A DNA stretch of 63,993 nt, the filler included, from Perkinsus olseni (Eukaryota): NCBI GenBank assembly GCA_013115125.1. It is 11 parts of 11 records of this genome, joined end to end, with 100 filler letters (N's around TTAATTAATTAA, not from the genome) between each part and the next. Parts side by side here need not be neighbours in the genome. Positions count along the whole stretch, not along the records: positions 1 to 5,886 come from JABANN010001153.1; 10 more parts are not named here. One strand, 5' to 3'. How positions within the stretch are numbered: the stretch's first letter is position 1; every line of letters starts with the position of its first letter. The notes under the pieces are model-generated. The model saw only the letters and a program-made list of their open reading frames with translations. It was not told where the DNA came from and made no database searches. The position numbers and the translations under genes were made by a program. Shown here one piece after another: positions 1 to 7,619 of the stretch.

Positions 1-72
1 AGCTAAGGATAAGGGACACCCTGTGTCCAGCACATCCTACAGCACACAGCAATTGGGCGATACCAGTGATCA
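1..72 (-). repeat. 3' LTR (partial), starting TGAT after the polypurine tract
   Basis: Minus strand reads GGGGGGG-CG-TGATCAC; bases 1-58 are repeated at 5829-5886. Confidence 0.7.
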
Positions 73-103
73 CGCCCCCCCAGACCAAATGTGTGTGCAA
101 CAA

Positions 104-964
104 TCAAAAGGCATCAATACCTTGAGATACTAGCCAATCACGCACAGCTTTGGGAATATGACGATGGGCAGTACTAGTAAACCCAGGACCAAAAAGATCC
201 AAAGGTCCTACAGTAAAAGTAGCAGACTCTCGGTCACGACGAGCACGAGGAGGATGCCAAGATCCATTACGGTGACGATCAAGGCCAACAACCTCCAGCT
301 GTTCAGGTGAAGCGTTCTCAACTAGACTAACAGATAAGTCATGAGACGGTTCAGCAGCATCAGAAGTCGTGGTTTCACGGATAACAAACACCCAATGACC
401 CGGTTTAATATCAAGAAAAGGAACCCCACCAGGCATAGAGGGCCGAGCAAGCTGGGTCAGTAGTGCTCTGTGAGGAAGAATAGAGTAATTGAAGTCATTA
501 ATAAACTCATCCGATTTGTAAGGTAACAGCTGACCAACAGATACATAACCAGACTTTCCACGGAGCTGGTACAAGTACCGATTACTTGGATGAACATGAT
601 CCACTTCATACGGACCCTGGATAACACGTTTACCGTTGATCTTACGGACAAGCCGCACGCTATCACCTTCCTCAAAAGAGTACCGGGGAACCACTGTCAT
701 CATATCATGAATTTCTGCTGTTGTGGCTCGCTCATCCCGGAGTTGGCGGTAGAGATCATACCGATCCTTAATAACAGTACTTACTTGGTCAAAATCGATC
801 TGACCATCCACGTCAGAACCAACAGTCAGGTTATGTGGGGACAACCTAGTCCCCATCAGTGGTGACTGATCATGGACAATACTACTAACCAATACAGAGA
901 TGTACCAGGGAAGAGCCGTACTGCTCGGCGAGCAGTGCTCGCAGCATTTGTTTGAAGACCACAC
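104..964 (-). CDS. Integrase C-terminal part in the -1 frame (end of core plus GPY/F SH3-like module)
   Basis: PWYISVLVSSIVHDQSPLMGTRLSPHNLTVG matches the post-catalytic integrase segment. FEEGDSVRL..QGPYEV is a GPY/F module. Overlaps the main ORF in the -1 frame. Confidence 0.8.
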   Translation of the reverse strand: MWSSNKCCEHCSPSSTALPWYISVLVSSIVHDQSPLMGTRLSPHNLTVGSDVDGQIDFDQVSTVIKDRYDLYRQLRDERATTAEIHDMMTVVPRYSFEEGDSVRLVRKINGKRVIQGPYEVDHVHPSNRYLYQLRGKSGYVSVGQLLPYKSDEFINDFNYSILPHRALLTQLARPSMPGGVPFLDIKPGHWVFVIRETTTSDAAEPSHDLSVSLVENASPEQLEVVGLDRHRNGSWHPPRARRDRESATFTVGPLDLFGPGFTSTAHRHIPKAVRDWLVSQGIDAF

Positions 965-3900
965 TTCAAATCACGGACTATACCTTCGACGAGACCCTGA
1001 GTTTGCGGCCTACGGGCTATCCCAATGGCCAAATGGAAACCCCAGGTTTTCGCGAAGGTAGACAGCTCATCACTAACATGGGCCCCTGCTCCATCTAGTT
1101 GAACATAGTCCGGTATTCCATAGGCCTGGAACCATATCAGAAGGCCCATGATGACAATAAGCGCCGATGTAGTTGGTACCAATAATGACAGTACAGCTCT
1201 TGATCCTTCATCAATCATGACCATAACATACATATTTCCACCGGGGCAAGGAGGCTGATTCGAGTCAGCAAAGCTATCCATAGGCCCCATGAAGTCCAAC
1301 TGCAGAGCGCTAAACCTCGTCATACCTCGCCTAAACACCAGGGGCTGAGGATTATAAGGCTCATACCACTTCCCCAGTTGGCAATTGGGGCAATGCTTTA
1401 TCCAGCGATTCATGTCCTTTGCCATTGTGGGCCACCAATAACCATCCGCCTTGGCAGCAGCAATTGCCCTAGGGGAGCCTCGATGCCCGCCAAGTAAGGG
1501 ATTACCATGATATCGATAAAGTGCCCAGGCGCGGCTACGTGTAGAAGGTAGGTATACTAGCCACGGCCCACCGGTTTGTTTGTCCTTGTACTTGAGTAGT
1601 CCTTCTGAGAACCTAAAACGCGGGCCAGTAGTTGCGCCCCCCAAACGCAGCCGTGTCGCAGTAGGGTAGGCATCAGGATCAGCAAAACTTGCTAGTAAAT
1701 CAGACACTGGTACACCAAATAACTTCAGGTTATTTGTAATATCTTCATCATCCAAGACTTGTCTACAGTGCTCCAAGAGGTCAGCTTCTGACATATCAGC
1801 AATGCCGGTCAAGTCATCACATTGCGTGGCACCAACATGCGCTGCGGCAACAGGGAATAGCTCTGTGTCTACTATAGAGATAACTGGATCAATAACGGGC
1901 AGCATCCTCTCAGGATCCACATGCCTAAGAGGAGGTGTAATCAACGCACAGTCACGATCATGTGTGAAAACTACACAAGAAGGGAGAGCATTTACAATGT
2001 TTGCCTTTCCGTTAGCATCAACAGGGATGTCAGAGAAAGCTGGCAACACAGCCAGCGAGTTCCCCAGTCGTGACAGCTTATCTGCCTCACCGTTGAGGTA
2101 TCCAGCTATATGGCGTATGCAAGCAGGTATGCCGAGCTTCTCTTGGCATTGAGATAAAAGGTCAGAAATATCATCCTGCAAACGGTGTACCGCTTGGATG
2201 TCATACTTACGAGGCTTATCCGCGCTACCCCATGCAGTTGCGGCGGTGTTATCACAATAAACAATGATGCCCCTAATATTATGGCTAGATGGTGGAAAGG
2301 CTTTCGCCCAATTCACCAAATAGCGGATTGTGCGGTGCAGCCAATAGAACTCCTTCCTATTGACATGCCATCGTTGCTGCTTTTCATCAAAAAGTCGAGC
2401 ATGTTCTTCTAAGGGTACGACATCATTATCATGAGGCCGACCCTCAGCAGTTCTCGAAGATATTAGGCAGCAACCTCCACCCTTGTCGGATGCGTCTGTA
2501 TATCCAATCAAATACAAATGCTCAGCTGGGATCGCGCCATGGGCACAATTCGAGAATCCCTCCTTAGCTCTATCAATGAGCGAACGCAGGGAGTCTAATT
2601 GCGGCTCAGCTAGCCGGAGCTGTTTATCCCAACTGCATTTCCATTTACCTGCCCATGAGCGAAGGTGATCGGCTATAAGCCTAGATTCAGCATGACAGTA
2701 CGCCGGATCATATATCGCTCCTGTAGCCGAGAATATCGATCTTTTCGATATAAATGGGCCAATAACGACACTGGATACTGGAGGGCTATTACACGAAACT
2801 AGGAGTTCTTTCGCATTGGACATGGAGAGAGTAACTCCTAGATGGTTAACAGCCGTTCCCAGACCTAACTGGGATTGTTTTTCAATAGGAAATTCAGCCC
2901 CTATCTGAGGGGCAATTCTCGATATAATTTCAACAAACCGGCGAGCCAGGTCGGTTGGACCGATGACCAGAAGGTCATCGTAGTAAGGCAAAATTGTCAA
3001 GCCCGAGATGACATCCGCCAGTCCGAAGACTTCGTGTACTTCAACAGGCCTTCCTAGCATGCCTGTGAGTACCGCATTGCATAGCGTACACACTTGTGCG
3101 CTCAATATGGCTGGACCTATCCGGATTCCAAAAATAATCCTATTTGAGACGAATACCCTACCCAGGGTACGGACCCTAACAAACTTGTTATGGGCTATTC
3201 TAATTTTATAGAATGCCTTTCGCAAATCTAATATAAACATACTAGATGATGCAGGGTCCCATCGTGCACGGACTAATCTCAGGATCTGGTCAATAGACCA
3301 ACCATTATAAGACGCTCTTGCAAGCTCACTATTGAGCCTGCGTGCGTCACTACACGCGCGCACGCGTGTAGATTTCGTTTCCTTCTGGCATGAAGGAAAC
3401 GTGATTATATCAGTTTCCGAGACCAAGGAGTGGGTATGGTCATTTTGGTCTATCGGGACCCACCAATGACTATCCACAAAATTCTTGATCTCCAAGCAAT
3501 AGTCAGAACGTGCTTGCTCTGAAAGAGCCTTGTACAGTCCGATGCTATAGTCGAAGGGTTTCGACGTGTTGCCCTTGCTTTTCATCGCATCGGCCACGTT
3601 ACTGGCTTGCGGACCCCTCGGCAACACTTCGACCTCAAGGGTCACAGTCTGAACACTGGTGTCCTTGACCTCCCAAGGCTCCAGTCGACGGAGTCTAAAA
3701 CGGTAGTCCGGCGCACCCGGGCATGCCTTCCATTTGTCAATATTTGACGTCAGGTAGAAGAGTGCCGATTCAACCTGGGTATCTATAGACGCTGAGATTC
3801 CACCTTCGTTGATTCCAGACGCAGATGGGACACTAATCTGTATGCCAATCGAAGGAAAATCTGGGTAACCCAACAGAACATCTGCTTCAGGCAAAGAATC

Positions 3901-5745
3901 CGTTATGAAACAACGTATTACTGGGCTATACCCACCATGGTTAAGTCGCAGAAACACTATCGAATCCATAGCTATTGTACTGCCGTCAGCTAGTATGAGA
4001 GTTGAGGGGTGTTGTAATTTTTTGACTTTCAACTGTAAATGATCCACCACGAGTCTTGTCACGAGGCTACATGCCGAGTAGCTGTCGATACCAACGCGCA
4101 CAGAAAACTGTTGGTCCAGTTCGTCGGGTGGTGACACCATCGTTGTCATTCTCCAGACTTTATCCGCCCCTGCTACTGACTGCGCAACACTCACAAAGTA
4201 AGCAGAGGTTTCACTAGTCTTAGAAACATTCACAGTACTAGATCTGTCTTGGTCAGACTTCTTCGAAGATCCATACTTCGGACAGTCTGCCAGCTTGTGC
4301 TCCATGGAGCCGCAACCCAGGCAAGCACCAGCTTGTCGTCGTTGCTGTAAGACTGAGCTGCTCACCTTGAGCTTCTCAGCAAGTGTCGGCTTGGCGGATT
4401 GAGCAGAGCCCGTCGAAGCCGTGGTAGATGCTGAAGATGGCTTAGATGGGGAAGTTGCAGTACCAGGTGCAACCCGCCGTTTATGCTCGCCATCTCGACC
4501 ATTATTACGGGACTCTTCAGCCGAAGGACTAGAAGAAATTGGCTTCCCATCATGCCCATGCTTTGGGCGCTTATCATGACCATGATCTTGCTGCGAACGG
4601 TGTCGTTTCTCACCACGATGGGACTTCTGGTTATCCTTCGTGCCGTTAGGGTCATCCCTCGTGAAGTCAAAGCGCTCTGTACCAAAAAGTCTGTCAAAAT
4701 CACTGAACCCATTAGCCCTAGCATACTCCTGAACAAGTGTAGTACACTCAGTATCAGACTTAGCCCTGGTCTCTATGAGACGTGCCAACTCAAGCACACC
4801 ATTATGCTCAGCAGCCGCCTTGCAAGAGCGAACAATAAGAGCCAGGTTCTTACGGCGGACTTTAAAGTCGAGCTTGACCGCACAGTCTTGGTTAAGGCCA
4901 TCATCACCAATTGCCGCAATCTTCGCTGCCAACCGACGCTCCTCAGAAAAAGCCCTCGAAAGAGGAATCTTCCTGAAACGTAAGGATGCCCATTGGCCGA
5001 GTAAGAGAACGATGTTATTGTCTCTTGGGGCTTCCGTCTCCTGATAGTCATGCCAACATGAAACCAACCTATCATATAGAATTTTCAGCGCATTAGTCCA
5101 TCTGGTAAAGTAACCATTCAGCACATCGGCATTGTAGTCCTTCTTGCTAGCTTCTTTCGTAATAAAAGTCCATAGCAGCAGGTCGGACTTGGGGTTAAAC
5201 TTCTCGACTCCACCGATTGAAGTAAAGAGTGCCTCCTTAAGGTTAGTGCGCAAGGCCGTATCCACCACGGTTTCCGGAAGGTAAGCCGCTAGACCAACCA
5301 AGAGAGGGCCCCACTTAGGTCCTGTAATACGCGCAGTGGCAGAGGATAAGTGTTGGCAAAGAGCATCGTAGTTGAAAACAGCGAACCCATCTTCTTGGCC
5401 AAAGGCCTCATCGCGAGTGGCAGTTCGATGTCGGGCCAGCTTATATGCTGCATGAAAAGCTGCAGGATCTGGTCCGAGGCGTTTGTCAGCGCAGGTAAAC
5501 TCCAAACCCGACCAGGCCAAAGCATTGGCAGAGACGCCGACAACAGCCAAAAGTTGGCGATAAGTACTTTGAGTTTGCAAGTGGGACCATTCCACCTCTA
5601 GCTCCTCAAAGCCTCCTCCAGGCACTGCCGCCAGGGCTGCCTTAACCCTATCCAAAGGGTTCTTTTCATTTAAAGAGATCTGAGGGCCGGATGATGCACC
5701 ATGATCACCCTTTGAGCCAGTCGACACCACAGATCCCTTCACCAT
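856..5745 (-). CDS. Gag-Pol polyprotein (CCHC knuckle, aspartic protease, RT, RNase H, integrase N-term and core)
   Basis: CLGCGSMEHKLADC zinc knuckle; IDSYSACS protease; LDLRKAFY / IFGIRIGP / YYDDLLV RT; YTDAS..DN..ADKLSR RNase H; H..GGH..YWWP..CPNC zinc finger; LQLDFMGP, QLDG, PQTQGLVE integrase core. First in-frame ATG at 5745 (ORF track opens at TTG 5790). Confidence 0.93.
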   Translation of the reverse strand: MVKGSVVSTGSKGDHGASSGPQISLNEKNPLDRVKAALAAVPGGGFEELEVEWSHLQTQSTYRQLLAVVGVSANALAWSGLEFTCADKRLGPDPAAFHAAYKLARHRTATRDEAFGQEDGFAVFNYDALCQHLSSATARITGPKWGPLLVGLAAYLPETVVDTALRTNLKEALFTSIGGVEKFNPKSDLLLWTFITKEASKKDYNADVLNGYFTRWTNALKILYDRLVSCWHDYQETEAPRDNNIVLLLGQWASLRFRKIPLSRAFSEERRLAAKIAAIGDDGLNQDCAVKLDFKVRRKNLALIVRSCKAAAEHNGVLELARLIETRAKSDTECTTLVQEYARANGFSDFDRLFGTERFDFTRDDPNGTKDNQKSHRGEKRHRSQQDHGHDKRPKHGHDGKPISSSPSAEESRNNGRDGEHKRRVAPGTATSPSKPSSASTTASTGSAQSAKPTLAEKLKVSSSVLQQRRQAGACLGCGSMEHKLADCPKYGSSKKSDQDRSSTVNVSKTSETSAYFVSVAQSVAGADKVWRMTTMVSPPDELDQQFSVRVGIDSYSACSLVTRLVVDHLQLKVKKLQHPSTLILADGSTIAMDSIVFLRLNHGGYSPVIRCFITDSLPEADVLLGYPDFPSIGIQISVPSASGINEGGISASIDTQVESALFYLTSNIDKWKACPGAPDYRFRLRRLEPWEVKDTSVQTVTLEVEVLPRGPQASNVADAMKSKGNTSKPFDYSIGLYKALSEQARSDYCLEIKNFVDSHWWVPIDQNDHTHSLVSETDIITFPSCQKETKSTRVRACSDARRLNSELARASYNGWSIDQILRLVRARWDPASSSMFILDLRKAFYKIRIAHNKFVRVRTLGRVFVSNRIIFGIRIGPAILSAQVCTLCNAVLTGMLGRPVEVHEVFGLADVISGLTILPYYDDLLVIGPTDLARRFVEIISRIAPQIGAEFPIEKQSQLGLGTAVNHLGVTLSMSNAKELLVSCNSPPVSSVVIGPFISKRSIFSATGAIYDPAYCHAESRLIADHLRSWAGKWKCSWDKQLRLAEPQLDSLRSLIDRAKEGFSNCAHGAIPAEHLYLIGYTDASDKGGGCCLISSRTAEGRPHDNDVVPLEEHARLFDEKQQRWHVNRKEFYWLHRTIRYLVNWAKAFPPSSHNIRGIIVYCDNTAATAWGSADKPRKYDIQAVHRLQDDISDLLSQCQEKLGIPACIRHIAGYLNGEADKLSRLGNSLAVLPAFSDIPVDANGKANIVNALPSCVVFTHDRDCALITPPLRHVDPERMLPVIDPVISIVDTELFPVAAAHVGATQCDDLTGIADMSEADLLEHCRQVLDDEDITNNLKLFGVPVSDLLASFADPDAYPTATRLRLGGATTGPRFRFSEGLLKYKDKQTGGPWLVYLPSTRSRAWALYRYHGNPLLGGHRGSPRAIAAAKADGYWWPTMAKDMNRWIKHCPNCQLGKWYEPYNPQPLVFRRGMTRFSALQLDFMGPMDSFADSNQPPCPGGNMYVMVMIDEGSRAVLSLLVPTTSALIVIMGLLIWFQAYGIPDYVQLDGAGAHVSDELSTFAKTWGFHLAIGIARRPQTQGLVEGIVRDLKCGLQTNAASTARRAVRLFPGTSLYWLVVLSMISHH

Positions 5746-5886
5746 TGATACAACGCTAGTATGCAACTTATTGGAGGAAATAATATCCAACAGGAAAGGA
5801 ATAAGCAGAACAATACATTACTAGCAGTAGCTAAGGATAAGGGACACCCTGTGTCCAGCACATCCTACAGCACACAGCAATTGGGC
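5746..5886 (-). repeat. 5' LTR (partial), ending ...GTATCA and followed by a PBS-like TGGT
   Basis: Shares 58 bp with 1-58. TGAT...ATCA termini. Minus strand continues A-TGGTGAAGGGATC. Confidence 0.65.
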
Positions 5887-5987: not shown

Positions 5988-6059
5988 GGTTCTATGGTGT
6001 AACGGTTAGCACTCCAGACTCTGAATCTGGCGATCTGGGTTCAAATCCCGGTAGAACCT
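5988..6059 (+). tRNA. tRNA-Gln (CTG)
   Basis: GGTTCTA/TAGAACC acceptor stem; anticodon arm CCAGA-CT-CTG-AA-TCTGG; T-loop GGTTCAAATCC. Confidence 0.96.
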
Positions 6060-6199
6060 CTACGCAAAATCATCTCGAAATGATATTGCGGTTTCACGTG
6101 ACCTCCTATCTTCAACACTACTCACGAGCGCTGAGCCAATCAGCATTGGAGTCACTCGGCGGCTGTATTCATTAGCGAGGGCTCGCGGCGACCACTATA

Positions 6200-7546: not shown

Positions 7547-7619
7547 TCCGATGTAGTCTAGCTGGTTAGGATTCGTGGCTCTCACCCACGCGAACGGGGT
7601 TCGAGTCCCCGCATCGGAA
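7547..7619 (+). tRNA. tRNA-Glu (CTC)
   Basis: TCCGATG/CATCGGA acceptor stem; CGTGG-CT-CTC-AC-CCACG anticodon arm; GGTTCGAGTCC T-loop; TTTT Pol III terminator downstream. Confidence 0.96.

What the first reader, a model, noticed from the sequence alone, without database searches (positions are those of the whole stretch)
1..5886. Compact LTR retrotransposon with a mosaic pol: BEL/Pao-like RT/connection, DIRS/Ty3-like RNase H, gypsy-like integrase
Seen in the sequence: YCLEIKNFVDSHWWVPI, KETKSTRVRACSDA, SKRSIFSATGAIYDP and WKCSWDKQL echo BEL/Pao motifs (TTKxRxVFDAS, TKRx3S..IFDPLG, WxxxxxWD). The RNase H (TDAS..WHVNRKE..CDNT..HIAG..NGEADKLSR) looks DIRS1/Ty3-like. The integrase (GH.G..YWWP.M..D..C..CQ, PQTQGLVE, GPY module) is Ty3/gypsy-like, and gag has a single CCHC knuckle. 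BEL/Pao elements are known mostly from metazoans, so this could be a deep-branching or chimeric LTR lineage in an alveolate (inference).
Basis: partly seen in the sequence, partly recalled or inferred. Interest (0 to 1): 0.75.

Follow-up and report, generated by a model that had tools for sequence, protein, structure and literature searches.

The report
Deep-branching retrotransposon of Perkinsus olseni
This is a nearly intact virus-like jumping gene from the shellfish parasite Perkinsus olseni; its enzymes mix features of two known retrotransposon superfamilies, most likely because it belongs to an old, unnamed group of lineages lying between them.

Summary
The finding is the whole of contig 1 of a window made of 11 unrelated contigs. 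On the minus strand it encodes gag (one CCHC knuckle), protease, RT, RNase H and integrase, and 97% of the unit is coding. One frame change lies inside the integrase. A Perkinsus olseni protein is 99% identical. All quoted motifs are present. No LTR pair is visible: the contig closes on itself by a 58-nt overlap, and only about 186 nt are non-coding.

The element has about 80 relatives (group F) among the 150 best hits. Crown BEL/Pao and crown Ty3/gypsy reference sets each form long-stemmed clades that exclude F.

- The thumb/connection of F is BEL/Pao-type (split 99/100).
- The RNase H is intermediate.
- The integrase of the window's sub-lineage groups with Ty3/gypsy (99/95) and carries a GPY module.

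The "mixed" look is therefore real. Recombination is not demonstrated, because the RT-to-RNase H data do not reject the integrase topology (p-AU 0.32 and 0.56).

My best reading is a deep, unnamed set of lineages between BEL/Pao and Ty3/gypsy, with the window copy on the gypsy side. It is not Troyka. LTRs, hosts of the relatives and rooting remain unchecked.

The parts
856..5790 (-). ORF1, 1644 aa: gag, protease, RT, RNase H and integrase up to the frame change. Residue i starts at 5790-3(i-1). The likely start is Met16 (window 5745).
   Evidence: The gag N-terminus is conserved in relatives from about residue 23-33.
4111..5745 (-). Gag-like region (residues 16 to about 560). It is mostly helical and conserved only in close relatives.
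   Evidence: A capsid fold was not demonstrated (0 matches at E<=1e-3).
4282..4323 (-). Single zinc knuckle CX2CX4HX4C (residues 490-503).
   Evidence: translation. C, C, G and H are invariant in alignment A3.
3721..4188 (-). Aspartic protease region. The active-site motif is D-S-Y (residues 569-571, window 4078-4086) in place of D-T/S-G, and LLGYPDF lies downstream.
   Evidence: of 42 aligned rows, DTG 12, DSG 11, DSY 5, DTM 4, DTY 2, DTQ 2, DTC 2.
2791..3408 (-). RT fingers and palm (residues 795-1000), with YYDD at window 2974-2985.
   Evidence: Model pLDDT is 89.9. Fold matches are RTs.
2515..2790 (-). RT thumb/connection (residues 1001-1092) of BEL/Pao type (LG..W, SKR, YDP, WD).
   Evidence: The weak Peptidase_A17 match lies here.
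2053..2514 (-). RNase H (residues 1093-1246) with the D-E-D-D motifs TDAS, NRKE, CDNT and EADKLSR. It follows the thumb directly, with no retrovirus-type tether.
1372..1533 (-). Integrase H2C2 zinc-binding domain (residues 1420-1473).
   Evidence: PF17921, 40.9 bits, above its cut-off.
1006..1245 (-). Integrase DDE catalytic core (rve match, residues 1516-1595).
   Evidence: (PFV integrase 1.9e-10; Ty3 1.2e-7).
883..925 (-). Interval in which the pol reading frame changes (frame -1 to frame -3). The 59%-identical relative P0002 reads through in one frame.
104..964 (-). ORF2, 286 aa: the end of the integrase core, the GPY/F module (window 518-676) and a conserved tail of about 135 aa with no known family.
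   Evidence: no Pfam match; collinear with the P0002 C-terminus.
1..103 (-). Non-coding stretch downstream of the pol stop. It holds a G7 run (75-81) and a tRNA-primer-site-like TGGTATCGCCC (55-65). Bases 1-58 repeat at 5829-5886.
   Evidence: Function is inferred only.
5746..5886 (-). Non-coding stretch upstream of gag Met16. Bases 5829-5886 are the exact copy of 1-58 that closes the 5828-nt path.

Best explanation
Contig 1 is one copy of a gag-pol retroelement of Perkinsus olseni. It is intact except for one frame change in the integrase.

How it most likely works is inferred from the gene order and intact catalytic motifs; nothing was assayed.
1. A full-length RNA is translated into a single Gag-Pol polyprotein.
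2. An aspartic protease with an unusual D-S-Y site cuts the polyprotein.
3. RT and RNase H copy the RNA into DNA from a tRNA primer.
4. A DDE integrase with an H2C2 finger and a GPY/F module inserts the DNA.

The assembly has probably collapsed two terminal repeats into a 5828-nt circular path. The repeat must then either be short (about 155 nt fits the non-coding gap) or overlap coding sequence.

In evolutionary terms the element belongs to a large, very divergent set of lineages (F) that lies outside both crown BEL/Pao and crown Ty3/gypsy. F lineages keep a BEL/Pao-type RT thumb, have an intermediate RNase H, and differ among themselves in integrase type. The window's sub-lineage sits on the Ty3/gypsy side. 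The mixed motifs are best read as inherited characters of deep branches between the two superfamilies, not as a recent recombinant.
For: Identity and anatomy:
- A P. olseni protein is 99% identical, and a 59%-identical uninterrupted 1714-aa gag-pol covers both window ORFs.
- The domain order and motifs are as described.
- The RT-RNase H model has pLDDT 89.9. Its best fold matches are CaMV RT 8r0s (E 3.7e-20, TM 0.64/0.70), then MLV, foamy virus and HIV RTs, with Ty3 at 6e-14.
- The family profile against PDB sequences gives 8r0s 2.1e-21, Ty3 4.5e-16 and HIV about 4e-8.

Size of the group: 82 of 152 stored proteins match the RT-RNase H segment at E<=1e-5.

RT-to-RNase H blocks:
- RT core tree (66 rows x 193 columns): F 99/96*, BEL/Pao 100/100*, gypsy 96/87*.
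- Thumb tree: {F+BEL/Pao}|{gypsy+P0156} 99/100, on a branch of about 5.3 changes per column.
- RNase H tree: F is a grade between the two 100/100 clades.
- Mean identities are RT F-B 17.5%, F-G 18.3%, B-G 17.1%; thumb 14.4, 11.6, 9.8; RNase H 18.7, 20.6, 18.0.

Integrase:
- Integrase tree (47 rows x 253 columns): {gypsy + window sub-lineage of 5} 99/95*, and {BEL/Pao + another F sub-lineage of 8} 94/90.

AU tests:
- Integrase data reject F as one clade (p 0.0024).
- RT core does not reject {gypsy + window sub-lineage} (dlnL 26.3, p 0.081).
- RT+thumb+RNase H does not reject it either (dlnL 5.6, p 0.32).
- On the same data, {BEL/Pao + sub-lineage 3} is 1.4 lnL better than the free quick tree (p 0.56).

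Motifs of both types are mixed inside single domains. In RT, F has sTKvRpV like BEL/Pao next to D.R..N like gypsy. In the integrase, F has sDna..F and N.rPL like BEL/Pao next to P..nGlvEr like gypsy. This fits descent better than swapping of whole domains.
Against: - There is no outgroup. No Copia, DIRS, Troyka, retrovirus or caulimovirus sequences could be brought into the trees, so everything is unrooted and 'between' cannot be turned into an order of events.
- The RT-core tree does recover F as one clade at 99/96*, and p 0.081 is close to rejecting the integrase-type grouping. The tool warned that the two long stems meet.
- The total-evidence quick tree (673 columns) leaves the backbone unresolved: gypsy + 7 F rows has SH-aLRT 50 and the other 14 F rows have 34.
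- The gypsy panel was drawn from the query's own integrase hits, and the BEL/Pao panel from one seed protein.
- The window sub-lineage was named as a group after the integrase tree had been seen.
- LTRs, target-site duplications and a primer tRNA were not observed. The two tRNA genes in the window do not match the candidate primer sites.
Confidence: 0.55

Rival explanations
1. True chimera. An ancestor of the window's sub-lineage carried an F-type (BEL/Pao-like thumb) RT and replaced its integrase with one from a Ty3/gypsy element. This could happen by template switching between co-packaged RNAs.
For: The integrase tree puts the window sub-lineage with gypsy at 99/95*, while other F lineages sit with BEL/Pao. 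The integrase data reject F as one clade (p 0.0024). The RT core recovers F as one clade at 99/96*. The window and P0002 have the gypsy-like MIDEGSR and a GPY/F module where the F consensus is BEL/Pao-like.
Against: The RT-to-RNase H data do not reject the integrase topology (p 0.081, 0.32 and 0.56). The F sub-lineages keep nearly the same order in the RT and integrase trees. Motif mixing occurs within domains, not only between them.
Confidence: 0.2
2. The element is simply a very fast-evolving member of Ty3/gypsy in the broad sense. Its place outside the gypsy references, and the BEL/Pao-like thumb, would then be artefacts of divergence, long-branch effects and a narrow reference panel.
For: The integrase groups with gypsy and has H2C2 and GPY/F. 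The family profile scores gypsy-type proteins highest in the word-limited search: 92 and 68 bits against 52 for BEL/Pao, with integrase columns helping. The best solved matches are CaMV and Ty3. ESM Atlas neighbours carry RVT_1 and RT_RNaseH, and none carries Peptidase_A17. Kojima 2025 (PMC12440569, section 17 read) notes that Gypsy is not a well-supported single branch.
Against: The thumb block separates F+BEL/Pao from gypsy at 99/100 across 25 F rows. The gypsy references exclude F at 96/87* for the RT core. F and BEL/Pao share a segment between RT motifs B and C that is about 11 columns longer than in gypsy. The gypsy-type Pfam models are below cut-off in the window copy.
Confidence: 0.15
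3. The element is a BEL/Pao (Belpaoviridae) member in a non-metazoan host.
For: The thumb motifs are BEL/Pao-type and the thumb tree agrees. There are weak Peptidase_A17 matches: window 14.6-16.8 bits, P0006 22.7 bits, and 4 of 31 members at E<=0.05.
Against: BEL/Pao is a 100/100 clade excluding F in every block. The window has no DUF5641, DUF1759 or DUF1758, and neither do 29 of 29 relatives scanned, whereas 112 of 112 BEL/Pao proteins carry PF05380. The integrase C-terminus is GPY/F-type.
Confidence: 0.04
4. The 5828-nt circle is real: an episomal or tandemly arrayed reverse-transcribing element rather than an integrated LTR element.
For: The contig closes exactly on itself. Only about 186 nt are non-coding. 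The G-run and the TGGTATC-type primer-site-like string lie 9 nt apart. The best solved relative of the RT is a caulimovirus enzyme.
Against: The element has a complete DDE integrase with intact motifs. Collapse of two LTRs into a loop is the ordinary outcome of short-read assembly (general knowledge). The copy carries a frame change, as decaying genomic insertions do. A 99%-identical protein is annotated in another P. olseni assembly on a linear 4807-nt contig.
Confidence: 0.04

Closest known systems
Ty3/gypsy (Metaviridae) LTR retrotransposons
   Same: The gene order gag-PR-RT-RH-IN is the same. So are the canonical CCHC knuckle, the H2C2 finger, the GPY/F module and the RNase H attached directly after the thumb. 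The integrase groups with gypsy references at 99/95. Solved Ty3 and the related CaMV RT are the best sequence and fold matches.
   Different: The RT core lies outside the 19 gypsy references. The thumb/connection is of the other (BEL/Pao) type. RVT_1, RT_RNaseH and rve all score below the Pfam cut-offs, whereas 25 ordinary gypsy proteins score 50-250 bits. The protease site is D-S-Y. No LTRs were seen.
BEL/Pao (Belpaoviridae) LTR retrotransposons
   Same: The gene order is the same. The thumb/connection motifs are shared (LG..W, TKR, DP, WD), as is a longer segment between RT motifs B and C. The thumb block groups F with BEL/Pao at 99/100.
   Different: BEL/Pao is a separate 100/100 clade in every block. 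The window has no DUF5641, DUF1759 or DUF1758. Its RNase H end motif and integrase C-terminus are gypsy-like. The host is an alveolate, while the family is described as metazoan (abstracts of PMC8742986 and PMC3118150, seen in the search listing).
Troyka (also published as Kuafuorterviruses?): a recently proposed LTR superfamily sister to Gypsy+Retroviridae+Caulimoviridae
   Same: It has a single Gag-Pol with the same domain order and no tether domain. Its reported position is outside crown gypsy, a comparable 'stem' placement (PMC12440569, abstract and sections 5, 11, 12, 17 read; PMC11673190, abstract and section 12 read). That the two names denote the same lineage is my guess, not something either paper states in the parts I read.
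   Different: [quoted passage not shown] The window element has CX2CX4HX4C and a GPY module and sits in Perkinsus. No Troyka sequence was available, so kinship of other F sub-lineages with Troyka is untested.
BEL and Gypsy 'environmental clades' from Tara Oceans plankton (Lescot et al., PMC5029228; passages read)
   Same: These are deep, unassigned BEL-classified (BEC1-5) and Gypsy-classified RT clades from marine eukaryote size fractions. RTs of the F group might well be sorted into such clades by HMM classification.
   Different: Only RT fragments without hosts or full elements were described there. Whether they are the same as F could not be tested.

Membership tests
Ty3/gypsy (Metaviridae) | Gene order gag-PR-RT-RH-IN on one strand | tested here: met
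   The feature is shared with BEL/Pao and Troyka, so it does not discriminate.
Ty3/gypsy (Metaviridae) | RT branches inside the gypsy clade | tested here: not met
   RT core tree: the 19 gypsy references form a clade (96/87*) that excludes all 25 F rows. A sister position is not rejected (p 0.081 and 0.32).
Ty3/gypsy (Metaviridae) | Gypsy-type thumb/connection and RNase H (Pfam RT_RNaseH_2 / RT_RNaseH at or above cut-off) | tested here: not met
   RT_RNaseH scores 13.1-15.4 bits against a cut-off of 24.8, and RT_RNaseH_2 has no match. The thumb block groups with BEL/Pao.
Ty3/gypsy (Metaviridae) | Integrase with an H2C2 finger and a GPY/F module, grouping with gypsy integrases | tested here: met
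   PF17921 scores 40.9 bits. QGPYEV...LLPY is in ORF2. The integrase split has 99/95*. H2C2 alone is also common in BEL/Pao.
Ty3/gypsy (Metaviridae) | Long terminal repeats with TG...CA ends, a primer-binding site, a polypurine tract and 4-6-bp duplications | tested here: inconclusive
   Only a 58-nt end overlap was found. Two candidate layouts were found and neither is verifiable. No flanks are present.
BEL/Pao (Belpaoviridae) | Pfam Peptidase_A17 (the post-RT connection model) at or above cut-off | tested here: not met
   It scores 14.6-16.8 bits against a cut-off of 22.3. Among relatives, 2 of 29 and 4 of 31 match weakly. In BEL/Pao, 112 of 112 carry it.
BEL/Pao (Belpaoviridae) | DUF5641 integrase C-terminus; DUF1759 / DUF1758 gag and protease | tested here: not met
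   No match in the window ORFs and none in 29 of 29 relatives.
BEL/Pao (Belpaoviridae) | RT, RNase H and integrase branch inside the BEL/Pao clade | tested here: not met
   BEL/Pao is 100/100 (integrase 100/99) and excludes the window element.
BEL/Pao (Belpaoviridae) | Thumb signature TKR...(F/Y)DP...WD | tested here: met
   The BEL/Pao consensus was derived here from 28 panel proteins, not from a curated source.
Troyka | Gag zinc finger CX2CX8-10HX4C | tested here: not met
   The window has CX2CX4HX4C at residues 490-503. The criterion comes from PMC12440569, section 12.
Troyka | No GPF/Y motif in the integrase | tested here: not met
   A GPY module is present in ORF2 and in P0002.
Troyka | 5'-CG...CG-3' termini and 3-bp target-site duplications | not testable with these tools
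   No element ends or flanks can be defined on this contig.
DIRS-like elements | A tyrosine recombinase instead of a DDE integrase | tested here: not met
   A DDE integrase is present. Likeness of the RNase H to DIRS was not tested, for lack of a DIRS reference.
Caulimoviridae | No integrase; a movement protein; an episomal circular genome | tested here: not met
   An integrase is present. The resemblance is limited to the RT-RNase H sequence and fold.

The most novel reading that the evidence does not exclude
The F lineages are living intermediates on the path between BEL/Pao and Ty3/gypsy. One sub-lineage is the closest relative of metazoan BEL/Pao. The Perkinsus sub-lineage is the closest relative of Ty3/gypsy, and hence of the stem leading to retroviruses and caulimoviruses. 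It still carries the ancestral BEL/Pao-type RT thumb alongside a gypsy-type integrase with GPY/F. If so, the two superfamilies split among elements of protists, the gypsy thumb is a derived state, and F would deserve one or more new superfamily or family names, as Troyka did.
Probability: 0.25. Interest if true: 0.8.

Novelty: new variant of a known kind. Interest (0 to 1): 0.55.

Why it matters
The deep relationships among Copia, BEL/Pao, Ty3/gypsy, retroviruses and caulimoviruses are unresolved. New superfamily-level lineages such as Troyka, Kuafuorterviruses and Odin have so far come from animals. BEL/Pao is described as restricted to metazoans.

This is a large, diverse set of elements from a protist, with relatives in public protein predictions whose hosts are unknown. 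It branches outside both crown groups and combines their diagnostic characters. It would break up the long stems that make these trees unstable. It would help polarise characters such as the RT thumb type, the GPY/F module and the integrase C-terminus. It would also improve repeat annotation in alveolate genomes, where standard profile models (RVT_1, rve, RT_RNaseH, Peptidase_A17) fall below their thresholds.

If it turns out to be only a fast-evolving gypsy lineage, the practical point about annotation still stands.

Tried and rejected
- **Related copies or solo LTRs in the window.** blastn and tblastn of contig 1 against the other ten contigs found nothing.
- **Internal repeats.** None was found apart from the 58-nt end overlap.
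- **Primer tRNA.** The two tRNA genes in the window (Gln, Glu) do not match any candidate primer site at 9 nt or more.
- **LTR layout.** Two self-consistent readings were found and neither can be verified.
  - Reading 1 is a 155-nt TGATCA...GTATCA repeat between the G-run and gag.
  - Reading 2 is a repeat of about 599 nt that overlaps the pol 3' end and ends before TGGTATCGCCC.
- **Tandem or circular architecture in long relatives** (P0039, P0065, P0071, P0012, P0010, P0096). Self-BLAST found no repeats.
- **Gag capsid fold.** The model had pLDDT 53, the fold search gave 0 matches at E<=1e-3, and the ESM Atlas scores were under 0.8. Gag identity therefore rests on position and the knuckle.
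- **Prokaryotic genome collection.** The alignment was too variable to search with. The single-protein scan gave 51 pattern matches, none confirmed.
- **P0156 as a DIRS stand-in.** It has an integrase and groups with gypsy, so it gave no independent fourth group.
- **Large integrase tree** (61 rows x 376 columns). The careful search never finished, so only the quick tree was seen. It was replaced by the 47 x 253 set.
- **Careful searches of the concatenated sets.** These did not finish; quick trees were used.
- **Rfam.** Only the two tRNAs were found.
- **Literature searches with no hit.** 'bel pao' + 'ltr retrotransposons' + 'dinoflagellate' gave 0 papers. 'bel pao retrotransposons' + 'metazoan genomes' gave 0. 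In the listing for 'Perkinsus' + 'retrotransposon' (55 papers, 15 listed), none classified Perkinsus LTR elements.

Full report
**What the region is.** The window is not one stretch of genome. It consists of 11 contigs in order of length, joined by N...TTAATTAATTAA...N spacers. The finding (1-5886) is exactly the first contig, so the rest of the window gives no genomic context. The other contigs carry ordinary eukaryotic genes (PP2C, subtilase, an ABC-transporter piece), a MULE transposase ORF and two tRNA genes. Nothing in them is related to the element. The first and last 58 nt of the contig are identical, which gives a 5828-nt circular path.

**Coding anatomy.** The element lies on the minus strand. 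ORF1 (5790..856, 1644 aa) reads through the following parts:
- a gag-like region of about 550 aa
- one CX2CX4HX4C knuckle (residues 490-503)
- an aspartic protease region
- RT, with YYDD at 936
- a thumb/connection
- RNase H, with TDAS, NRKE, CDNT and EADKLSR
- a linker of about 170 aa
- an H2C2 finger and the DDE core

ORF2 (964..104, 286 aa, another frame) continues with the end of the core, a GPY/F module and a conserved tail. A 59%-identical P. olseni protein (P0002, 1714 aa) covers both ORFs in a single frame. The window copy therefore has one frame change, between window 883 and 925. Another P. olseni protein is 99% identical, which fixes the host. Gag is conserved from residue 23-33 in close relatives. 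Coding thus probably starts at Met16, and only about 186 of 5828 nt are non-coding.

**Strength of the domain calls.**
- Pfam passes only Integrase_H2C2 (40.9 bits). rve, RVT_1, Peptidase_A17 and RT_RNaseH are all below their cut-offs.
- A single-sequence search of PDB finds only integrases: PFV 1.9e-10 and Ty3 1.2e-7.
- A profile of 31 family members finds a caulimovirus polyprotein (8r0s, 2.1e-21), Ty3 (4.5e-16; RT alone 1.5e-8) and HIV RT (about 4e-8).
- The AlphaFold model of RT-RNase H built on that alignment is confident (pLDDT 89.9, pTM 0.88). It matches CaMV RT best (E 3.7e-20, TM 0.64/0.70 over 498 columns), then MLV, XMRV, foamy virus and HIV RTs, with Ty3 RT at 6e-14.
- RT and RNase H are therefore secure.
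- Gag is not. Its model is poor (pLDDT 53), it has no structural match and no Atlas neighbour. Its identity rests on position and the knuckle.

**Termini.** No LTR pair can be seen. In the sense strand the pol stop is followed by a G7 run. Nine bases later comes TGGTATCGCCC, which looks like a primer site for an initiator-type tRNA; that likeness is recalled, not tested. About 110 nt of leader then precede gag. Two layouts are self-consistent:
- a 155-nt repeat, TGATCA...GTATCA, filling the non-coding gap
- a repeat of about 599 nt that starts after GAGGAAGG inside pol and ends just before TGGTATCGCCC

The second would put conserved coding sequence inside the repeat. Neither layout can be checked without further copies. 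'LTR retrotransposon' is therefore an inference from the gene order, and the circular path is most simply a collapsed pair of repeats.

**The relatives.** The exhaustive search with residues 700-1644 found 4183 proteins at E<=1e-3 and 190 at <=1e-10.
- Of the 152 proteins then stored, 82 match the RT-RNase H segment at E<=1e-5. I call these F.
- Pfam on 29 of them shows the same weak picture as the window. RVT_1 is found in 13 (3 above cut-off), RT_RNaseH and/or RT_RNaseH_2 in 9, Integrase_H2C2 in 16, rve in 13 and Peptidase_A17 in 2. None has DUF5641, DUF1759 or DUF1758.
- The listed hits that match only the integrase are ordinary Ty3/gypsy proteins with strong Pfam scores, four of them with chromodomains (25 scanned). 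They served as panel G.
- A profile search returned one true BEL/Pao protein, P0155. In it Peptidase_A17 lies after RVT_1, which means the model covers the thumb/connection.
- Searching with P0155 gave 112 BEL/Pao proteins, all with PF05380, including named insect, nematode and fish entries. These served as panel B.
- Many of panel B also carry Integrase_H2C2, so that domain does not separate the superfamilies.

**Motif comparison.** In a 93-sequence alignment the group consensuses compare as follows:
- The BEL/Pao-like thumb is a property of F as a whole. F reads LGv.W..g.L..TKR..F.iAG..yDPl...WD and BEL/Pao reads LGL.W..dtl..TKR.iLS.aA.iFDPlG...WDE.LP. Gypsy reads LGHvV...ELRsFLGlVnYyRRFI...W.
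- F and BEL/Pao share a longer segment between RT motifs B and C.
- The RNase H of F (tDAS..G.G, H.NRkE, HIpG..N..AD.LSRL) looks more like gypsy.
- Within the RT fingers, F has both the BEL/Pao-like sTKvRpV and the gypsy-like D.R..N.

In the integrase:
- The F consensus has BEL/Pao-like vgiD, Lt..Cr.Tg, sDna..F and N.rPL next to gypsy-like GHrG and P..nGlvEr.
- The window and P0002 have the gypsy-like MIDEGSR and GPY/F.

Mean identities put F about as far from B as from G:

| Block | F-B | F-G | B-G |
|---|---|---|---|
| RT core | 17.5% | 18.3% | 17.1% |
| Thumb | 14.4% | 11.6% | 9.8% |
| RNase H | 18.7% | 20.6% | 18.0% |

**Trees.** All trees used IQ-TREE with LG+C20+F+G4 PMSF and are unrooted. 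To save time I used 25 of 44 F rows and 21 of 28 B rows, together with 19 G rows and P0156; of the 20 G rows, P0063 was dropped for low occupancy.

| Block | Rows x columns | Main result |
|---|---|---|
| RT core | 66 x 193 | F 99/96*, B 100/100*, G 96/87*; F+B against G+P0156 only 83/39 |
| Thumb | 66 x 89 | {F+B}|{G+P0156} 99/100 on a branch of about 5.3 changes per column; bootstrap not fully settled |
| RNase H | 66 x 138 | B and G+P0156 each 100/100; F rows lie as a grade between them; one F sub-lineage of 4 rows joins the gypsy side at 95/97 |
| Integrase | 47 x 253 | {G + window sub-lineage WIN1, P0002, P0003, P0004, P0010} 99/95*; {B + an 8-row F sub-lineage} 94/90; nesting of the window sub-lineage inside G is weak (74/85, 47/67) |

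For the integrase set, 11 rows with too little sequence after RNase H and 8 with incomplete integrases were left out, and long-branch rows were removed. P0156 proved to have an integrase and to sit with gypsy, so no independent fourth group or outgroup was available.

**Is it a recombinant?**
- The integrase data reject F as one clade (dlnL 41.2, p-AU 0.0024).
- The reverse tests do not reject the integrase topology. {G+P0156+window sub-lineage} on the RT core costs dlnL 26.3 (p 0.081).
- {G + window sub-lineage} on RT+thumb+RNase H (47 x 420, quick tree) costs dlnL 5.6 (p 0.32).
- {B + sub-lineage 3} on the same data is 1.4 lnL better than the free tree (p 0.56).
- The total-evidence quick tree (673 columns) has B and G at 100. 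G sits next to the window's sub-lineage plus two more F rows at SH-aLRT 50, and the other 14 F rows group at 34. The backbone is thus unresolved.
- The sub-lineages keep nearly the same order in the RT and integrase trees.

I conclude that the mixed look is real but that recombination is not demonstrated. A set of deep lineages spanning the interval between BEL/Pao and Ty3/gypsy, with the Perkinsus lineage on the gypsy side, explains all blocks. An old integrase exchange remains possible.

Caveats:
- There is no root.
- The reference panels are biased.
- The sub-lineage was named after the integrase tree had been seen.
- Long stems may attract each other (tool warning).

**Comparison with what is known.**
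- The ICTV profile calls Belpaoviridae 'metazoan-infecting', and de la Chaux & Wagner speak of the 'metazoan BEL/Pao subclass' (abstracts in the listing).
- Kojima 2025 (PMC12440569; abstract and sections 5, 11, 12, 17 read) lists the LTR-bearing groups as Copia, BEL, Troyka, Gypsy, Odin, Retroviridae and Lokiretroviruses. He finds Gypsy not to be a well-supported single branch. He places Troyka, found in animals only, as sister to Gypsy+Retroviridae+Caulimoviridae+Loki-Odin.
- The Troyka hallmarks are a CX2CX8-10HX4C knuckle and no GPF/Y motif. The window element meets neither, so it is not Troyka.
- Kuafuorterviruses (PMC11673190; abstract and section 12 read) are likewise from animals.
- Lescot et al. 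(PMC5029228; passages read) reported five deep BEL and two Gypsy 'environmental clades' among plankton RTs. F may overlap with these, but that is untestable here.
- My searches found no paper that classifies Perkinsus LTR elements or reports BEL/Pao-like elements in dinoflagellates. Repbase and GyDB could not be consulted, so the family may already sit there under 'Gypsy'.

**Verdict.** I rate it as a new variant of a known kind of element, of moderate interest. Interest would be higher if rooting and host assignment confirm a grade linking the two superfamilies.

Noticed in passing
window 1-63993: The window is 11 separate contigs in descending length (5886 down to 4559 nt), joined by N...TTAATTAATTAA...N spacers. 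Only contig 1 has a terminal overlap.
   Followed up: yes
window 4078-4086 (-): The protease active site reads D-S-Y instead of D-T/S-G. Close and more distant relatives have DSY, DTY, DTM or DTC at the same place, and more distant ones have DTG or DSG. This replacement of the glycine is lineage-wide and apparently tolerated.
   Followed up: partly
window 104-520 (-): A tail of about 135 aa follows the GPY/F module of the integrase. It is conserved in P0002 up to the C-terminus but matches no Pfam family.
   Followed up: no
window 1534-2052 (-): A linker of about 170 aa lies between RNase H and the integrase zinc finger. It has no family match.
   Followed up: no
window 5988-6060 and 7547-7619 (+): tRNA-Gln(CTG) and tRNA-Glu(CTC) genes lie on contig 2. 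The Gln gene starts at the second base of that contig.
   Followed up: partly
window 54271-57452 (+): A MULE transposase-domain ORF (56565-57452) lies next to a 610-aa ORF without a Pfam match (54271-56103) on contig 10. This is probably a Mutator-like DNA transposon.
   Followed up: no
window 23913-29761: Contig 5 has 57% G+C (up to 60% locally) against 47-52% for the other contigs. It carries ORFs of 492 and 456 aa with no Pfam match. It may have a different origin or be a repeat.
   Followed up: no
proteins P0155-P0199: A tight group of BEL/Pao proteins comes from short unnamed assemblies. They carry Peptidase_A17 and DUF5641, but no DUF1759 gag domain is listed for them. Their hosts are unknown, so they might be BEL/Pao outside animals.
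   Followed up: no
protein P0012: This family member has a second partial thumb-RNase H match (residues 1405-1636) directly after the first (854-1395). The RNase H region is apparently duplicated, or the gene model is fused.
   Followed up: no
proteins P0044, P0064, P0072: Some F members carry weak matches to the copia-type gag model Retrotran_gag_2, and others have CCCH rather than CCHC fingers. Gag is therefore heterogeneous across the group.
   Followed up: no
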